62,130 bases of DNA from Patescibacteria group bacterium (GTDB taxonomy: Bacteria; Patescibacteriota; Patescibacteriia; PEXW01). The stretch covers positions 1 through 62,130 of the forward strand of contig JBAZBR010000006.1 of assembly GCA_041671325.1 (NCBI GenBank), read 5' to 3'. Position 1 is the stretch's first letter. Every line of letters begins with the position of its first letter. The position numbers were made by a program, and so were the translations under genes. The notes below the pieces were generated by a model, which did not search any database, was not told the origin of the DNA, and saw only the letters and a program-made list of their open reading frames with translations. Positions 5,553-42,934 of the stretch are shown in pieces.

Positions 5553-6820
5553 AACGCATCGCCCTTATTAATGTCCATTGCGATCCTTTAGAGCAGCTGG
5601 GCTCGGCCGAAGCAGGCGGCCAAAATGTGTATGTTTTCCATTTAGCCAAAGCCTTGGGTAAACTTGGTTTTCACGTGGATGTTTTTTCCCGGCTTAACTC
5701 CAGACTAAAAAAAGAACGCGTTAGGTTGACCAAGCATGTCCAATTCATCCGCTTGCGAGCCGGGCATAGACATTTTATCCCTAAAAATGAACTCGGACCC
5801 TTACTGCCAGAATTCATCAGTAATTTTTTGGCTTGGCAAAAACAGGAAAAAGCAACTTATTGCATGTTACATTCGCATTATTGGGAAGCCGGCTGGGTCA
5901 CTTTGCAATTGAAATCAATCTTGCGTTTGCCCCAAGCCCACACCTTCCATTCCTTGGGTATCATGCGCTATAACGCGCTTAAAGGTTTTCGCGAACAAAG
6001 CTTGAATACCAAGGAAATCAAGCACCGGATTGCCGTGGAAAAAGAAATCACCCAAAAAGCCGACCGCATAATCAGCACCAGTCCTTATGAGCGGGAATAT
6101 TTGGAAAAGCACTACGCCGCCAATCCTGATCACATCCGGGTAGTGCCTTGCGGCGTGGATTTAATCCGTTTTAAACCGATTGACCGCTTCGTTGCCAGAC
6201 GAAAAATCGGGGCTGAGCCAACGGAAAAAATAATTCTTTATACTGGCCGGATTGAATGGCGCAAAGGCATTGGCACTTTGGTTATCGCAGTTTCCAAATT
6301 ATTCAAACACCACCCGGAATTAAGGAAAAATACCCGACTCTATATTGTCGGCGGCAATTTGGGACGCCGGGCCGAGCCCGAGGTCAGGGATGAAATCCGC
6401 AGGCTTAAAGATGTTTGTCGGGAGCTGGGTATCCGCGACCGGGTGGAGTTCACCGGGGCGGTTCAACAAGAAAAACTGCACTTCTATTATTCAGCCTCAA
6501 ATGTTTGCGTCATTCCCTCCTACTATGAGCCTTTCGGCATGGTGCCATTGGAAGCCATGGCCTGCAAGGTGCCAGTTATCGCCTCAAATACTGGAGGGTT
6601 GCCTTATAGCGTCAGGGATGGCAAATCTGGAATTCTGGTACCCGTCAGAAATCCGGGTTGTATTGCCAACCAGCTTTTCAAAATTCTGCACGACCGGGAA
6701 TTTTCCGAAAAACTTATCCGGGGCGGCCGGGATCTGGTAAAAAACACTTTCTCCTGGAGGATTATTGCCGAGCAAGTCGCCCATGTATACGAACGGGTTT
6801 TAGAAACCCAAAAAAAATAA
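5549..6820 (+). CDS. GT4 glycosyltransferase, MshA/sucrose-phosphate-synthase-like
   Basis: HCDPLEQLGSAEAGGQNVYV, HSHYW, HTFHSLG, GRIEWRKG and PSYYEPFGMVPLEAMAC motifs. Confidence 0.85.
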   Translation: MKRIALINVHCDPLEQLGSAEAGGQNVYVFHLAKALGKLGFHVDVFSRLNSRLKKERVRLTKHVQFIRLRAGHRHFIPKNELGPLLPEFISNFLAWQKQEKATYCMLHSHYWEAGWVTLQLKSILRLPQAHTFHSLGIMRYNALKGFREQSLNTKEIKHRIAVEKEITQKADRIISTSPYEREYLEKHYAANPDHIRVVPCGVDLIRFKPIDRFVARRKIGAEPTEKIILYTGRIEWRKGIGTLVIAVSKLFKHHPELRKNTRLYIVGGNLGRRAEPEVRDEIRRLKDVCRELGIRDRVEFTGAVQQEKLHFYYSASNVCVIPSYYEPFGMVPLEAMACKVPVIASNTGGLPYSVRDGKSGILVPVRNPGCIANQLFKILHDREFSEKLIRGGRDLVKNTFSWRIIAEQVAHVYERVLETQKK

Positions 6821-6915: not shown

Positions 6916-7443
6916 CTAAATCTTACCAACGCTAACAGCGATACAGTCGCCTTTACGAAAATTCGCGAAGTGTTGGTATCCGCCAATTCCGGTAATTCCG
7001 AAATCATAGTACCTCAAACTAAGCGTAAATTTCCCTATTTTTGAATAAACGCAGGGAATTTCGTTCTCGTACTGAACTCTGTCTTCATCAAGCCGATTAT
7101 GCTTTGTCCGTATCTCGGGGTACCCCGCAATCACTGTTGAATGTTTGCGCATTTCTTTGGGGTACTGCTCAACGAGCGCAAATAGTTGCCTAAGACCGAT
7201 CTTGTACAATTTATTCTCGGCCAATATATTAAACGCTTGATCTACGGCAATTGTCGTATGCACTTTGATTAGTTTAATTCTTATTACATGTTTCCTTTTT
7301 ACTCTTTCAAAATGCCTAGCGATATTGTTAATTAGCTTTGGATCTGGTGATTCTAAAAAAAGCGGCAGATAGCTTTCGAAAGTTCGATTTGCTTCGACCC
7401 TGATCTTTAAAAAAGCCGCCTCTGAAAGAACGTTTAAGCTCAT
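6916..7443 (-). CDS. Hypothetical protein, paralog-like to 7502..8092
   Basis: 175 aa; SD AAGGAG 7 nt before ATG; segment GLRQLFALVEQYPKEMRK matches DLQELLAVGEQYPEEQRT of the neighbour. Confidence 0.6.
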   Translation of the reverse strand: MSLNVLSEAAFLKIRVEANRTFESYLPLFLESPDPKLINNIARHFERVKRKHVIRIKLIKVHTTIAVDQAFNILAENKLYKIGLRQLFALVEQYPKEMRKHSTVIAGYPEIRTKHNRLDEDRVQYENEIPCVYSKIGKFTLSLRYYDFGITGIGGYQHFANFRKGDCIAVSVGKI

Positions 7444-38246: not shown

Positions 38247-38287
38247 TTTTAAAAACACCCGTGAATTTAGGCGGGTGTTTTCCTTTA

Positions 38288-38410
38288 CCCCCTCTCCCTT
38301 TGGGAGAGGGTATCCCGCCGAATGGCGGGAGGGGTGAGGGTTACTCGGAATTATTAGGAAAATTATTAATCAACCTCACCCTCAATCCCTCTCCTTTATA
38401 GGAGAGGGGG
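38288..38410. repeat. REP-doublet-like palindromic element with a nested hairpin
   Basis: CCCTCTCCC-TTT-GGGAGAGGG...GGGGTGAGGG and inverse CCTCACCCTCAATCCCTCTCC-TTTATA-GGAGAGGG; nested TCCCGCC-GAAT-GGCGGGA at 38313..38330. Confidence 0.75.
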
Positions 38411-39468: not shown

Positions 39469-39607
39469 TTATTTAGCATAATCTATTTAGCAATGAATAT
39501 TTTTGGTCTTCCGCCAGAGGCGGACCCCGCAGTATAGCTGGGCTATGCCTAAAATATCCATATTCTAAGACTAGCATATTTGAAAATTGGCTTAGAAACA
39601 GGGTTGA

Positions 39608-40891: not shown

Positions 40892-41536
40892 ATGAAAAAA
40901 ACAGTTGTTATTATATCTATCGTTATTGCCGTCGGTATTTTGGGCTTTGTCGCTTATAGCCTTTTGACTTCTTCAAAAGTACCCCAAGCATTTATTGATA
41001 AGCACAACGAAAAAGTCGCTTTGGAAAAAGAAGCAACTCAAGCGGCTGATTTGAACAGTTTGCCTGAATGGAGCAATGTTGATAAGCAGATTAGTGAAAA
41101 AAGCTATACTAACGCCTTAAAAACAATCGAAACTGGTTTGAGTCGGAAAAAAGAGGCCGCGGCAAAATTAAATGCCATAGATGGCAAATTGTCAGAATTG
41201 AAATCACTTTCTGAAAAAATTACCGATTCTAAAGTAAAGACAAGCGCTGATAATTTTATTGAGACAGCCAAGAAAGAAAATTCCGCTAAAAGTGCTTATA
41301 ATAACCTTCAGATCCAGATGATTGAAAAGTTAAAAGCGATGGTCGATATTTTAGAAAAAAATCCTAATACTATAAGTACCGCTAATGAAAAAATCATTAA
41401 CACTCTGAGCAATGAAATTAACAGTTTAAAAACTCAGATCAACGAAGCTGAAACCGCGCTCAATACCATTCAAAGTCAGTACAAGGTTGCTGAAACAGAC
41501 TTTTTTAAACTTGCCGGTTTAGAAGTAGAAAAGTAG
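40892..41536 (+). CDS. Membrane-anchored coiled-coil hypothetical protein
   Basis: Start moved from 40787 to ATG 40892 (MKKTVVIISIVIAVGILGF); K/E-rich helical body. Confidence 0.65.
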   Translation: MKKTVVIISIVIAVGILGFVAYSLLTSSKVPQAFIDKHNEKVALEKEATQAADLNSLPEWSNVDKQISEKSYTNALKTIETGLSRKKEAAAKLNAIDGKLSELKSLSEKITDSKVKTSADNFIETAKKENSAKSAYNNLQIQMIEKLKAMVDILEKNPNTISTANEKIINTLSNEINSLKTQINEAETALNTIQSQYKVAETDFFKLAGLEVEK

Positions 41537-41633
41537 TAAATATTTATTAAAGTAATACCGAAGACTTCGCTGTTTTTTCATTTTGGCTATTGACCATAAC
41601 CTAACAATAAGGCAGTATTCATTTTGTATTCAC

Positions 41634-41750
41634 GGCCCTATCGTCTAACGGTTAGGCCCGCCCGCCGAAGCTTCGCTTCAGGCGAAGCGGGCGGGACATT
41701 CGCTTTTTCCCGCCATTTGGCGGGACCGTGCCGTACGGCGGGGCAAGCCG
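41634..41750 (+). pseudogene. Decayed 5' half of tRNA-Glu interrupted by two palindromic inserts
   Basis: First 23 nt identical to the intact tRNA; 39-nt hairpin insert; ACATTCGCTTTT; about 35-nt hairpin insert; CAAGCCG; no T-arm. Confidence 0.75.
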
Positions 41751-41759
41751 CCAAACTAT

Positions 41760-42017
41760 ATGTTTACTGTTTATATTATTAAGAGTTTAAAGGTGAAAAG
41801 ATATTATGTTGGCGTTGCCGAAGATGTAAGTGATCGTATTGCCCAACACAACCAAGGCAAAGTCCGTTCGACAAAGGCTTTTACTCCTTATAAGCTTATT
41901 CATACAGAATCCTTTCAAACTCTTTCACAAGCAAGAGCACAAGAAAGTAAGATTAAACGCTCTGGTCATATCGAGCGCTATCTAAAGAATTTTATGGCCC
42001 TATCGTCTAACGGTTAG
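41760..42017 (+). CDS. Small standalone GIY-YIG nuclease family protein
   Basis: VYII...YYVG...R...HN.G...TK...P..L...E.F.....A...E..IK pattern; last residues MALSSNG-stop are read from the tRNA 5' end. Confidence 0.88.
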   Translation: MFTVYIIKSLKVKRYYVGVAEDVSDRIAQHNQGKVRSTKAFTPYKLIHTESFQTLSQARAQESKIKRSGHIERYLKNFMALSSNG

Positions 42018-42070
42018 GACATCGGCTTTTCAAGCCGGTAATCGGGGTTCGATCCCCCGTGGGGCTACCA
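41996..42070 (+). tRNA. tRNA-Glu (anticodon TTC)
   Basis: 75-nt cloverleaf: acceptor GGCCCTA/TGGGGCT, D-stem GTCT/GGAC, anticodon loop TTTTCAA, T-loop GGTTCGAT, encoded CCA. Confidence 0.92.
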
Positions 42071-42194
42071 GCTCGTTTCGCGTGTCAAGTTGTGCGTGAA
42101 CCGTTTTTACGTTTCCCGCTCCACCCTCCACGCGAATCCTCGCTTCACCCCAACGACGCGTGCTCACTCAGCGTTCCGCGCCACGTCGTCGGGG

Positions 42195-42212
42195 TCCCCC
42201 GTGGGGCTACCA
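42195..42212 (+). repeat. 18-bp duplicate of the tRNA-Glu 3' end (att-like)
   Basis: TCCCCCGTGGGGCTACCA identical to 42053..42070. Confidence 0.85.
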
Positions 42213-42295
42213 CTACCAAACTTTAATTTCTCAAAGATAGTGGTATCCTAAGGGTGCGTGGATATTTACGTACTTATCAACTAATATTATCAAAT

Positions 42296-42934
42296 ATGCG
42301 CAAAAATACGCTTTGCGGGATGATCGCCCTTGCCATGCTTTTATTCCCGTTACATGCCGTACTGGCAGCCTCAAATAGTTTAATTGATCAGGTTACAACC
42401 CCGCTCCATCCAATCCTTCAGCAACTCCACGCGAAGACTTACAATGCCACGGCGCAAGGCAAGACTTATACTGATAAAAAAAATGGCTTTAGCCTAACCT
42501 TGCCGACAGGCTGGAAAAAAATAACCACGCCGGCCAACTCCATCTTCGCCGCGCAACCAACCAACAACATTGACGCGGAATTATTGCTTACCATGACTAA
42601 GTATAAAACCCAAAAACAAGCCAATGCTGCTAACACCAGTATCACTAAAAACCCTAAAAATTTTGGGAAACTTCTACTCAAGGGCTTCCAGGCAGAATTC
42701 CCCACCGGAAACTGTATCCTAAAAACTGCCTTGAAGAAAAATTTGGGCGGCAAAGTTGGCACTCGTGCGAATGTTAATTGTGTCCTGGGGACAACGTCCT
42801 ATACACTGAGCACATTTGCCTTTGTCCACAAACTCACCTATTACGCATTTGTAGACTTGGCTCCAACCAGTCAATTCTCCGGACTCCTCCCGAAGTTTGA
42901 CGCAATCATAGCTAGCATGAAGTTTACGAAGTAA
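42296..42934 (+). CDS. Secreted protein, possibly PsbP/DcrB-like fold
   Basis: Start moved from 42254 to ATG 42296; signal peptide; YTDKKNGFSLTLPTGW and FDAIIASMKF are typical of this fold. Confidence 0.55.
   Translation: MRKNTLCGMIALAMLLFPLHAVLAASNSLIDQVTTPLHPILQQLHAKTYNATAQGKTYTDKKNGFSLTLPTGWKKITTPANSIFAAQPTNNIDAELLLTMTKYKTQKQANAANTSITKNPKNFGKLLLKGFQAEFPTGNCILKTALKKNLGGKVGTRANVNCVLGTTSYTLSTFAFVHKLTYYAFVDLAPTSQFSGLLPKFDAIIASMKFTK

What the first reader, a model, noticed from the sequence alone, without database searches (positions are those of the whole stretch)
41634..42070. GIY-YIG nuclease cassette that carries and depends on a tRNA 5' half
Seen: promoter-like region, tRNA-Glu nt 1 to ~43 (decayed), 85-aa GIY-YIG ORF starting 9 nt later, then a complete tRNA-Glu. 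The ORF runs into the tRNA: its last codons (MALSSNG) and TAG stop come from tRNA nt 1-22. Established: integrases usually duplicate tRNA 3' ends, and homing GIY-YIG enzymes usually sit in self-splicing introns; no integrase or intron core is visible here. Inference: a minimal mobile unit (nuclease plus tRNA 5' half) inserts at the anticodon arm, rebuilds the tRNA downstream and leaves the old 5' half to decay. tRNA 5' maturation by RNase P would then cut off the nuclease mRNA's stop codon, coupling nuclease expression to tRNA processing. I know of no characterised system with this layout.
Basis: partly seen in the sequence, partly recalled or inferred. Interest (0 to 1): 0.82.

Follow-up and report, generated by a model that had tools for sequence, protein, structure and literature searches.

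The report
Nuclease gene cassette lodged inside tRNA gene
A tiny nuclease gene sits inside a bacterial tRNA-Glu gene and carries its own spare copy of the tRNA's front end so the tRNA still works; the same layout recurs next to tRNA genes in many bacterial phyla and looks like an undescribed kind of selfish DNA.

Summary
An intact tRNA-Glu(UUC) gene (41996-42070) follows an 85-codon GIY-YIG ORF (41760-42017). The ORF's last 7 codons and TAG stop are tRNA nt 1-22. Next to a conserved promoter lies a dead copy of tRNA nt 1-42, split by two GC-rich hairpin blocks.

In two independent collections, 86 of 124 homologous ORFs abut a same-strand tRNA (under 1 expected; none on the opposite strand). 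Of 88 testable loci, 70 carry a partial tRNA copy on the far side of the ORF.

Relatives of this organism show both occupied and empty tRNA-Glu alleles. In one species pair the cassette has dS 0.10 against 1.0-1.2 in flanking genes, which points to horizontal transfer.

The protein is a bare UPF0213/SLX1-type catalytic domain.

Best reading: a selfish nuclease cassette living in tRNA transcription units and carrying a replacement tRNA end. It parallels the mobile ORFs of fungal mitochondria. Cleavage specificity is untested. So is the RNase P/stop-codon coupling, and the overlap behind it is facultative in the family. Nine literature searches found no description of this layout.

The parts
41590..41618 (+). 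Promoter-like TTGACC (41590-41595), 17-nt spacer, CAGTAT (41613-41618). This is the native tRNA-Glu promoter, now directly upstream of the dead 5' half.
   Evidence: Sequence. The same hexamers and the following 15 nt are conserved in L082, and a TTGAC(C/G) box sits at the same distance before the intact tRNA in the empty alleles L084, L086 and L088. Below the threshold of the generic scan.
41634..41656 (+). Dead tRNA-Glu copy, nt 1-23 (exact).
   Evidence: Direct repeat D1. BLAST E 1e-8 within the window.
41657..41695 (+). GC-rich hairpin insert 1 (39 nt, about 77% GC) at tRNA position 23/24 of the dead copy.
   Evidence: L082 has a related insert at the same position.
41696..41707 (+). Dead copy, nt 24-35 (ACATTCGCTTTT; 2 mismatches to the live tRNA).
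   Evidence: Gapped alignment of the tRNA to the upstream region.
41708..41743 (+). GC-rich double-hairpin insert 2 (36 nt, 75% GC) inside the anticodon (position 35/36) of the dead copy.
   Evidence: Double hairpins at this same position occur in L002, L007, L008, L020, L065, L077 and L082.
41744..41750 (+). Dead copy, nt 36-42 (CAAGCCG). This is the end of the old 5' half; the ATG follows 9 nt later.
41760..42017 (+). GIY-YIG nuclease ORF, 85 aa, UPF0213/SLX1-like catalytic domain only. Codons 79-85 and the TAG stop are tRNA nt 1-22.
   Evidence: Pfam PF01541 at E 8e-13. Y5, Y16, G18, R26, H30, N31 and E62 are invariant or nearly invariant in 48 homologs. AlphaFold model pLDDT 90.5. Best structural matches are 1ZG2, SLX1 and 1YWL.
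41996..42070 (+). Intact tRNA-Glu(UUC) with encoded CCA. It is the only tRNA in the window.
   Evidence: ARAGORN. Rfam RF00005 at 60.8 bits. 74-75/75 identical to the tRNA-Glu of relatives L082, L084, L086 and L088.
42077..42107 (+). Terminator-like hairpin plus T-run directly after the tRNA.
   Evidence: A homologous hairpin plus T-run follows the tRNA in L084, L082 and L002.
42071..42194 (+). 124-nt GC-rich non-coding insert ('Y') between the live tRNA 3' end and the old 3' end copy. It has no ORF.
   Evidence: Y-like inserts are present in L084 (whose 5' side is empty), L002 and L082.
42195..42212 (+). Exact copy of tRNA nt 58-75 (TCCCCCGTGGGGCTACCA). It may extend to nt 47-52 (TCGGGG, 42189-42194) with the T-loop deleted.
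   Evidence: Direct repeat D3. BLAST E 7e-6.

Best explanation
The locus is a tRNA-Glu gene occupied by a minimal selfish cassette. The cassette is a stand-alone GIY-YIG (UPF0213/SLX1-type) nuclease gene fused to a replacement copy of the tRNA's 5' part.

Layout: native promoter, then the old tRNA nt 1-42 (dead, broken up by GC hairpins), then the nuclease ORF, then a complete tRNA. Because the cassette brings a new 5' part, no splicing is needed; the duplication does the job an intron ribozyme would otherwise do.

Inferred expression: promoter, dead half, ORF and tRNA are transcribed as one RNA. RNase P releases the tRNA and thereby sets the 3' end of the nuclease mRNA. In this locus that cut removes the last 7 codons and the stop codon.

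Inferred spread: the cassette moves between genomes by recombination that uses the highly conserved tRNA sequence on both sides of the ORF as portable homology arms. This is most likely triggered by a break the nuclease makes in unoccupied tRNA genes.

The GC hairpins inserted into the dead copy are part of the cassette's anatomy. My preferred reading is that they break up the direct repeat. Recombination between the two tRNA copies then cannot delete the ORF without wrecking the tRNA.

The same tRNA carries a second, ORF-less insertion with a duplicated 3' end, left by an earlier and independent event.
For: Shown:
1. Anatomy of the locus.
2. The promoter is conserved in front of the dead half in the window and L082, and sits directly in front of the tRNA in the empty alleles L084, L086 and L088. 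Occupied and empty alleles therefore exist around a 74-75/75 identical tRNA.
3. Family-wide association. 51 of 77 genome loci and 35 of 47 independent metagenome loci have a same-strand tRNA pressed against the ORF, against about 0.4 expected and none on the opposite strand.
4. 52 of 66 downstream-tRNA loci carry a partial 5' tRNA copy just before the ATG. 18 of 22 upstream-tRNA loci carry a partial 3' copy just after the stop. Scores exceed the reverse-complement, shuffled and displaced controls.
5. Mobility. The L012 and L018 cassettes are 97% identical over 373 nt, with sharp edges at old tRNA nt 1 and about 10 nt past the tRNA 3' end. ORF dS is 0.10 against 1.0-1.2 in the flanking genes. 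Tandem or nested relics occur in L022, L038, L054 and L055.
6. The ORF is a real gene. The catalytic residues Y5, Y16, R26, H30, N31 and E62 are conserved. The model has pLDDT 90.5. dN/dS is 0.16 in the L012/L018 pair.
7. ORF lineages track tRNA type.
8. GC hairpins are 5.0 per kb in the 100 nt before the ATG against about 0.3 per kb elsewhere. They cluster at tRNA positions 9-13, 20-25 and 33-38 of the dead copy.

Precedents: T4 SegB, a GIY-YIG homing enzyme that recognises the tRNA TpsiC motif (PMC2330249). Fungal mitochondrial mobile ORFs that carry a duplicate of the host gene's end (PMC3630166).
Against: - No cleavage data exist. The protein is only the 85-aa catalytic domain. It lacks the DNA-binding domains that give I-TevI and the Seg enzymes their specificity, and it is closer to structure-selective SLX1 than to I-TevI.
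- The occupied allele keeps an intact tRNA, so a purely intra-tRNA target would also be cut in the carrier. How self-cleavage is avoided or tolerated is unexplained.
- The window and L082 cassettes look vertically inherited since their common ancestor. They share hairpin positions, and the ORFs are only 58% identical where TsaD is 80%. Long-term retention could mean a benefit to the host.
- About 30% of homolog loci show no adjacent tRNA.
- Co-transcription, RNase P processing and any effect on nuclease level are inferred, not shown. A weak promoter-like site inside the ORF at 41924-41953 could drive the tRNA on its own.
- The role of the hairpins is conjecture. Similar hairpins occur in other intergenic spots of the window.
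Confidence: 0.62

Rival explanations
1. Domesticated host nuclease. The small UPF0213-type nuclease does a cellular job, such as DNA repair or clearing transcription-replication or R-loop problems at heavily transcribed tRNA genes. It is simply expressed from tRNA operons. The tRNA half-copies are by-products of old rearrangements.
For: The ORF is kept intact with its catalytic residues over long divergence: window versus L082, with TsaD 80% and the ORF 58% identical. The family is very large, with 3789 clusters at E<1e-3. Relatives such as BH0048 and EF2693 are ordinary chromosomal proteins. The ORF is always co-oriented with the tRNA.
Against: Close relatives lack the gene at the same tRNA (L084, L086, L088). 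The ORF is attached to at least a dozen different tRNA species, each with a matching half-copy. The cassette in L012/L018 is about ten-fold younger than its flanks. Tandem relics mark repeated invasions.
Confidence: 0.15
2. The GC-rich palindromic hairpins are the primary mobile entity, comparable to mitochondrial GC clusters or double-hairpin elements. The SLX1-like nuclease is their structure-specific enzyme. tRNA genes are hit because their DNA can extrude cloverleaf or cruciform structures. The ORF-plus-half-tRNA arrangement is then a consequence of breaks at stem-loop junctions.
For: The hairpins are stereotyped: 6-bp stems with 3-nt loops, often in pairs. Near-identical units recur in unrelated cassettes. 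CCTGCCTGCGCAGGCAGG occurs in Glu and Gln cassettes. The L002 and L082 double hairpins are 29/30 identical. Hairpins are enriched 15-fold at the cassette. Insert positions and ORF junctions coincide with tRNA stem/loop boundaries. The nuclease is structurally nearest to SLX1, which cuts branched DNA. Similar hairpins occur elsewhere in the window.
Against: No target-site duplication or other transposition signature is seen at hairpin borders. Some cassettes have no hairpins (L033, L038). Nothing links the protein to hairpin DNA experimentally.
Confidence: 0.13
3. Remnant of an integrase-mediated island (att-site duplication), or of a tandem tRNA gene duplication that decayed, with the GIY-YIG ORF as a passenger.
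For: Integrative elements do duplicate tRNA ends. The 3' 18-nt repeat at 42195-42212 looks like a classical attR. In relative L086 a large serine recombinase gene abuts the tRNA-Glu 3' end.
Against: The duplication flanking the ORF is of the 5' part. Only 339 nt lie between the repeats, and they hold one gene. No integrase lies within about 12 kb. The same one-gene content recurs in over 80 independent loci.
Confidence: 0.05
4. Assembly artefact: a chimeric join at a repeated tRNA.
For: Metagenome assemblies do break at the repeat; L001 ends at the ORF stop.
Against: The same arrangement appears in independent samples and assemblers (L082 and L083) and in more than 80 other loci, including the isolate genome of Pararhodonellum marinum, L071.
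Confidence: 0.01

Closest known systems
Mobile ORF elements (mORFs) of fungal mitochondria with duplicated host-gene ends (Allomyces atp6; Glomus atp6, atp9, cox2, nad3; PMC3630166)
   Same: An endonuclease ORF (GIY-YIG in atp9) is inserted in an essential gene. The element carries its own copy of the interrupted gene's end, so the gene stays functional. The native end is left behind as a decaying fragment. ORF and host gene are co-transcribed, and horizontal transfer is inferred from discordant divergence. The upstream-tRNA class (tRNA, ORF, old 3' end) has exactly this order; the window's class is its mirror image.
   Different: Here the host gene is a bacterial tRNA, not a mitochondrial protein gene. 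The nuclease is a bare 85-aa UPF0213/SLX1-type domain. The ORF ends are set by tRNA processing sites rather than by in-frame fusion to a protein. GC hairpins are inserted into the dead copy.
Phage T4 SegB and other free-standing GIY-YIG homing endonucleases (PMC2330249)
   Same: A GIY-YIG gene stands free among tRNA genes. SegB recognises a site containing the conserved tRNA TpsiC motif and drives its own inheritance, along with neighbouring tRNA genes, by break repair.
   Different: SegB is a larger protein with DNA-binding modules. It lies between complete tRNA genes of a phage, does not interrupt a tRNA and carries no half-copy. The window's protein lacks any DNA-binding domain and matched no PHROG family.
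UPF0213 proteins (BH0048, PDB 1ZG2; EF2693, 1YWL) and the SLX1 nuclease domain
   Same: These are the best sequence and structure matches. They share the catalytic motif set and, for UPF0213, the same size.
   Different: No tRNA association or mobility has been reported for them, to my knowledge. SLX1 has a RING/zinc-finger domain and an SLX4 partner, both absent here.
tRNA-targeting integrative elements (phage or ICE integrases)
   Same: They insert in a tRNA gene and carry a replacement for the displaced tRNA end, which leaves a direct repeat.
   Different: They use a recombinase, duplicate the 3' end and are kilobases long. Here there is no recombinase, the 5' part is duplicated, and the content is one 85-codon gene.
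Group I introns in bacterial tRNA genes, with or without homing endonuclease ORFs (PMC3984707)
   Same: A selfish element interrupts a tRNA near the anticodon arm without killing it.
   Different: No ribozyme is present, so neutrality comes from duplication rather than splicing. In L048 both solutions coexist on one tRNA.
Mitochondrial GC clusters / double-hairpin elements (PMC4478555) and the tRNA punctuation model of mitochondrial transcripts (the latter from my own knowledge)
   Same: Short GC-rich double hairpins invade AT-rich non-essential DNA. mRNA ends are defined by excision of flanking tRNAs. In the upstream-tRNA class a CCA-less tRNA end is followed by the ATG after 0-4 nt.
   Different: The setting is bacterial chromosomes. 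No evidence yet shows that the hairpins move on their own or that the mRNAs are leaderless.

Membership tests
GIY-YIG nuclease superfamily (Pfam PF01541) | GIY and YIG motifs plus a conserved Arg, His/Asn and catalytic Glu | tested here: met
   PF01541 at E 8e-13, 48.9 bits against a cut-off of 22.6. Y5, Y16, G18, R26, H30, N31 and E62 are invariant or nearly invariant in 48 homologs.
GIY-YIG nuclease superfamily (Pfam PF01541) | beta-beta-alpha-beta-alpha core fold | tested here: met
   AlphaFold model with pLDDT 90.5: E2-9, E15-20, H23-31, E44-52, H55-67, H71-82. Foldseek matches 1ZG2, SLX1, 1YWL, I-TevI and UvrC.
UPF0213 / SLX1-like clade | Closest sequence and structure relatives are UPF0213 proteins and SLX1 nuclease domains | tested here: met
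   Profile against PDB sequences: 1ZG2 3e-16, 1YWL 4e-14, SLX1 4e-9. Foldseek top hits are the same.
SLX1 structure-specific endonuclease proper | C-terminal RING/zinc-finger domain and an SLX4 partner | tested here: not met
   The protein is 85 aa, catalytic domain only.
GIY-YIG homing endonucleases (I-TevI, SegA-G) | Catalytic domain joined to sequence-specific DNA-binding modules (NUMOD, IENR1, HTH) | tested here: not met
   Only the GIY-YIG domain is found. No PHROG or NCBIfam match. I-TevI ranks only 12th in the fold search.
GIY-YIG homing endonucleases (I-TevI, SegA-G) | Presence/absence polymorphism at a fixed site, and discordant (horizontal) inheritance | tested here: met
   Occupied L082/L083 against empty L084, L086 and L088. 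L012/L018 cassette dS 0.10 against flanks 1.0-1.2.
GIY-YIG homing endonucleases (I-TevI, SegA-G) | Site-specific cleavage of the allele that lacks the gene | not testable with these tools
   Needs purified protein and DNA substrates.
Mobile ORF elements with duplicated host-gene end (fungal mitochondria) | Endonuclease ORF inside a host gene, flanked by a functional (carried) copy and a residual (native) copy of the same gene segment | tested here: met
   Window: dead nt 1-42, then the ORF, then the intact tRNA. Family: 52/66 and 18/22 loci.
Mobile ORF elements with duplicated host-gene end (fungal mitochondria) | The ORF's endonuclease demonstrably drives mobility | not testable with these tools
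   Reported as shown biochemically for Allomyces according to PMC3630166. Untested here.
Integrase-borne tRNA-targeting islands | Tyrosine or serine recombinase gene within the element | tested here: not met
   No recombinase among ORFs within about 12 kb. Only 339 nt lie between the 5' repeats.
Integrase-borne tRNA-targeting islands | Direct repeat of the tRNA 3' end | tested here: inconclusive
   The 18-nt 3' repeat at 42195-42212 fits this feature, but it encloses only 124 nt with no gene. The repeat that flanks the ORF is of the 5' part.
Group I intron in tRNA | Ribozyme core (P3-P9) detectable by covariance model | tested here: not met
   Rfam at gathering and at E<=10 gives only the tRNA in 41400-42400. 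The same search does detect a group I intron in L048.

The most novel reading that the evidence does not exclude
Small UPF0213/SLX1-type GIY-YIG genes wedged into tRNA genes form a widespread, undescribed class of bacterial mobile element. They occur in Patescibacteria, Ignavibacteria, Bacteroidota, Chloroflexota, Omnitrophota and others.

Under this reading the element:
- targets tRNA genes through their structure rather than their sequence;
- stays harmless by carrying a replacement tRNA end instead of a ribozyme;
- uses the conserved tRNA itself as universal homology arms for cross-species homing;
- borrows tRNA processing (RNase P and RNase Z) to make its mRNA ends, leaderless or stop-less;
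- plants GC double hairpins in the dead tRNA copy so that the host cannot delete it by recombination without destroying an essential tRNA.
Probability: 0.35. Interest if true: 0.9.

Novelty: new variant of a known kind. Interest (0 to 1): 0.8.

Why it matters
If this is right, tRNA genes across many bacterial phyla host a minimal selfish element. These phyla include the ultra-small Patescibacteria, where each tRNA gene is typically single-copy (general knowledge of these genomes, not tested here).

Several consequences follow:
- The element solves the problem of interrupting an essential gene by duplication rather than splicing. That strategy was so far documented for protein genes of fungal mitochondria.
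- It would explain many of the orphan 'GIY-YIG family protein' annotations.
- It would explain many of the unexplained tRNA gene fragments that confuse tRNA annotation.
- It offers a natural case of nuclease expression tied to tRNA maturation.
- It points to a catalytic-domain-only nuclease that may read DNA structure at tRNA genes.
- It supplies a testable model for how conserved RNA genes serve as landing pads for horizontal transfer.

Tried and rejected
- The search for homologous proteins with the ORF returned only itself, because of the word-index limit. With the downstream neighbour it found one distant hit on a 739-nt contig. Relatives were reached instead through the exhaustive HMMER search and through TsaD.
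An 8-sequence alignment worked.
- NCBIfam and PHROGs gave no family for the ORF.
- Rfam at E<=10 found nothing credible in the hairpin leader or in the 3' insert, so the leader is not a known RNA family.
- dN/dS between the window and L082 ORFs is not computable because dS is saturated.
- The contig of the closest TsaD relative (P0154, 89%) has no DNA available.
- I considered that the dead half plus hairpins still folds as a tRNA-like unit. I rejected this because the anticodon-stem strands of the dead copy no longer pair, and the T arm and 3' acceptor strand are absent.
- I considered fold-back (palindromic) repair as the source of the hairpins. I rejected this because the inserts are not inverted copies of the adjacent tRNA sequence.
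- I looked for target-site duplications at hairpin borders and found none.
- Nine literature searches found no paper describing GIY-YIG cassettes in bacterial tRNA genes. Subscription literature was not searched.
Full report
WHAT IS IN THE SEQUENCE

ARAGORN finds a single tRNA in the 62-kb window: tRNA-Glu(UUC) at 41996-42070, with an encoded CCA. Rfam agrees at 60.8 bits and reports nothing else at gathering threshold.

An 85-codon ORF runs from 41760 to 42017. It matches Pfam GIY-YIG at E 8e-13. Its last codons, ATG GCC CTA TCG TCT AAC GGT TAG, are tRNA nt 1-22.

Upstream, tRNA nt 1-23 recur exactly at 41634-41656 (BLAST E 1e-8 within the window). A gapped alignment shows the upstream copy goes further than that:
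- nt 1-23
- a 39-nt GC-rich hairpin (41657-41695)
- nt 24-35 with two mismatches (41696-41707)
- a 36-nt double hairpin (41708-41743)
- nt 36-42 (41744-41750)
- 9 nt
- the ATG

The leader folds better than shuffles (z -3.6).

A TTGACC-17-CAGTAT promoter-like site sits at 41590-41618.

That insert begins with a terminator-like hairpin and a T-run.

No integrase, transposase or intron core lies nearby. The neighbours are ValRS, TsaD, an S8 peptidase, VanW-like, RuvB and M17 peptidase genes. The window holds no second GIY-YIG copy.

THE PROTEIN

An exhaustive HMMER search finds 3789 clusters at E<1e-3.

In an alignment of 48 homologs, Y5, S9, R26, H30, N31, E62 and K66 are invariant. Y16, G18, G33, S37, T38 and P43 are nearly so. 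This is the GIY-YIG catalytic set.

AlphaFold gives pLDDT 90.5 with the expected beta-beta-alpha-beta-alpha core. The last three residues, which are tRNA-encoded, are disordered.

Structure and profile searches place the protein with UPF0213 proteins (1ZG2, 1YWL) and the SLX1 nuclease domain. It does not group with I-TevI. It is a bare catalytic domain with no DNA-binding module, and neither NCBIfam nor PHROGs has a family for it.

FAMILY-WIDE tRNA ASSOCIATION

The first clue was that many homologs end in peptides that are translated tRNA 5' ends (ALSSNG, APSSNG, PSSSLV, G-x-I-V, GEVA). Many also begin with translated T arms (GFESR, GSNP, GSSP).

I fetched 80 loci from species-representative genomes and 80 from metagenome contigs (52 non-redundant and new).

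Among 77 evaluable genome loci, 51 have a same-strand tRNA pressed against the ORF. In 37 the tRNA starts between -60 and +30 nt of the stop. In 16 it ends within 60 nt before the ATG. Two loci have both. About 0.4 are expected from tRNA density in the same loci, and none lies on the opposite strand.

The metagenome set replicates this: 35 of 47, again none on the opposite strand.

Hosts are mostly Patescibacteria, but also include Ignavibacteria, Bacteroidota/Cyclobacteriaceae, Chloroflexota, Omnitrophota and Neomarinimicrobiota. The partner tRNAs include Glu, Ser, Gln, Tyr, Met, Cys, Arg, Pro, Leu, Ala, Asp, His, Gly and Trp. ORF lineages cluster by tRNA type and by side.

HALF-COPIES ARE THE RULE

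When the tRNA is downstream ('class D', as in the window), a partial copy of its 5' part lies just before the ATG in 52 of 66 loci. These scores exceed the maximum of all reverse-complement, shuffled-tRNA and displaced-region controls.

When the tRNA is upstream ('class U'), a partial copy of its 3' part follows the stop in 18 of 22 loci.

The dead 5' copy ends mostly at nt 20-29 or nt 40-49, and the ATG typically follows within 0-15 nt.

So the ORF is in effect inserted in the middle of a tRNA gene, with one side of the tRNA duplicated so that a complete gene remains. L002 shows the same double layout as the window, with a 5' piece upstream and a 3' piece downstream.

L048 is a class D cassette in front of a tRNA that also carries a group I intron. 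This shows the two ways of being harmless side by side on one gene.

OCCUPIED AND EMPTY ALLELES NEAR THE WINDOW'S ORGANISM

Using TsaD, which lies 2.5 kb away, I found relatives.
- L082/L083 (TsaD 80% identical, two samples) have the same locus occupied. They show the same promoter hexamers, a dead half with hairpins at 13/14, 23/24 and 35/36, and an ORF 58% identical to the window's that also ends in MALSSNG inside the tRNA.
- L084 (67%) has the promoter directly in front of the tRNA, so its 5' side is empty. It still carries a Y-like 3' insert with a 3' copy.
- L088 (66%) is empty on both sides.
- L086 is empty at the 5' side and has a large serine recombinase gene abutting the tRNA 3' end.

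The tRNA is 74-75/75 identical in all of them. The 5' cassette and the 3' insert are therefore separate events, and the 3' insert is the more widely shared.

MOBILITY

L012 and L018 carry tRNA-Gln cassettes that are 97% identical over 373 nt. The edges are sharp: one at nt 1 of the old tRNA copy, the other about 10 nt past the tRNA 3' end. Outside these edges the sequences diverge.

Within the ORF, dS is 0.10 and dN/dS is 0.16. Two flanking genes have dS of 0.99 and 1.18. The cassette is therefore roughly ten times younger than the split of its hosts. That indicates horizontal transfer, or conversion, bounded by tRNA sequence.

L054/L055 share a 97.6%-identical module of tRNA-Gly, tRNA-Leu, ORF and 3' copy in otherwise unalignable flanks. 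L022, L038, L054 and L055 hold tandem or nested relics, as expected from repeated invasion of one site.

THE HAIRPINS

The dead copies carry 39 inserts of 10 nt or more in class D. Their median length is 31 nt and their GC content is 65%, against 43% for the loci as a whole.

They are stereotyped. Units have 6-bp stems and 3-nt loops, such as TCCGCC-NNN-GGCGGA, and often come in pairs. Near-identical units recur in unrelated cassettes:
- CCTGCCTGCGCAGGCAGG in Glu and Gln cassettes
- CCTGCCTGCCGGCAGGCAGG in L027 and L043
- the L002 and L082 double hairpins, 29/30 identical although the two ORFs are clearly diverged

Perfect GC hairpins reach 5.0 per kb in the 100 nt before the ATG, against about 0.3 per kb elsewhere in the loci. 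Insert positions cluster at tRNA nt 9-13, 20-25 and 33-38. I saw no target-site duplications. Similar hairpins occur in two other intergenic spots of the window.

Their role is open. I favour the idea that they break up the direct repeat, so that recombination between the tRNA copies cannot remove the ORF and still leave a working tRNA. They could equally be mRNA 5' stabilisers, protection from the nuclease, or its substrate.

EXPRESSION (INFERRED)

The native promoter is upstream of the dead half, and the ORF is always co-oriented with the tRNA. The simplest reading is one precursor RNA.

In class U, a CCA-less tRNA end is followed by the ATG after 0-4 nt in eight of 17 loci. This would yield a near-leaderless mRNA after 3' processing of the tRNA.

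In class D, RNase P would set the mRNA 3' end. In the window and about half of class D loci the stop codon lies inside the tRNA, so a processed mRNA would lack a stop. In the other half the ORF has its own stop 0-19 nt before the tRNA.

COMPARISON WITH KNOWN SYSTEMS

The closest documented mechanism is the mobile ORF of fungal mitochondria. There an endonuclease ORF inserted in atp6, atp9, cox2 or nad3 brings a copy of the gene's end and leaves the native end as a remnant. Horizontal transfer is inferred there from discordant divergence (PMC3630166).

T4 SegB shows that a GIY-YIG homing enzyme can use a conserved tRNA motif as its target (PMC2330249).

The present case differs in four ways: the host gene is a bacterial tRNA, the enzyme is a catalytic-domain-only UPF0213/SLX1 type, tRNA processing sites serve as mRNA ends, and hairpins are inserted in the dead copy.

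Nine full-text searches found no description of it. A preprint on tRNA gene fragments in prokaryotes does not mention GIY-YIG. Subscription-only literature could not be searched.

VERDICT

That core is a nuclease cassette that carries a tRNA 5' part, rebuilds the tRNA and leaves the old half to decay.

Three things remain unshown: that the nuclease makes the initiating break, how the carrier avoids cutting its own intact tRNA, and whether tRNA processing regulates the nuclease.

I rate it a new variant of a known kind (mobile endonuclease ORF with a duplicated host-gene end), of high interest.

Noticed in passing
window 42071-42212; L084 about 7060-7174 (minus strand); L002 3307-3487; L082 about 5900-6011 (minus strand): The same tRNA-Glu carries a second, ORF-less insertion on its 3' side: a terminator-like hairpin plus T-run, a GC-rich stretch, then a copy of the tRNA 3' end. 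It is present in L084, whose 5' side is empty, so it is independent of the GIY-YIG cassette. In L084, L082 and L002 (not in the window) it holds a 12-nt inverted copy of the T arm whose loop co-varies with the tRNA's own T loop (AATCGGA versus AATCGAA). Its origin is unresolved: a relic of a class U cassette or of an integrase att site.
   Followed up: partly
window 38285-38410 and 39505-39540: Clusters of GC-rich short hairpins of the same style as those in the dead tRNA half lie in two other intergenic regions, either side of tsaD. Examples are TCCCGCCGAATGGCGGGA and TCCGCCAGAGGCGGA; the latter is identical to a unit in the L082 and L008 cassettes. They may be a genome-wide family of small palindromic elements.
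   Followed up: partly
L086 1926-3621: In a relative with an empty 5' site, a large serine recombinase gene (Resolvase, Recombinase and Zn_ribbon_recom domains) overlaps the 3' end of the same tRNA-Glu on the opposite strand. This suggests an integrative element using this tRNA as its attachment site.
   Followed up: no
L048 2215-2935: A class D GIY-YIG cassette (dead tRNA nt 1 to about 27 with a hairpin insert, then the ORF) sits directly in front of a tRNA that also contains a group I intron in its anticodon loop (Rfam RF00028, 90 bits).
   Followed up: partly
L015, L016, L032, L051, L054, L055, L079, L080 (tRNA end to ATG): In the mirror-image class the ORF's ATG follows a CCA-less tRNA 3' end after only 0-4 nt. 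This implies a leaderless or near-leaderless mRNA made by tRNA 3' processing, as in mitochondrial tRNA punctuation.
   Followed up: partly
L022 2850-3575; L038 1423-2066; L054 667-1371; L055 2911-3409: Several loci hold two or more partial tRNA copies, and in places a second degenerate ORF-sized gap. These look like tandem or nested relics of repeated insertions at one tRNA.
   Followed up: partly
L024 and L050 (Hadesarchaea MAGs): Two archaeal contigs encode close homologs of the nuclease with no tRNA detected nearby. Either the family also exists outside the tRNA context, or these contigs are mis-binned.
   Followed up: no
window 41924-41953: A weak sigma-70-like site (TTCACA-18-TAAGAT) lies inside the 3' part of the ORF, 43 nt before the tRNA. 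It could give the tRNA a promoter of its own, independent of read-through from 41590.
   Followed up: no
L001 (3641 nt): An independent short-read assembly of the same organism ends exactly at the ORF's stop codon, inside the repeated tRNA segment. Cassettes of this kind may often be lost at contig ends, so their frequency in metagenome assemblies is probably underestimated.
   Followed up: no
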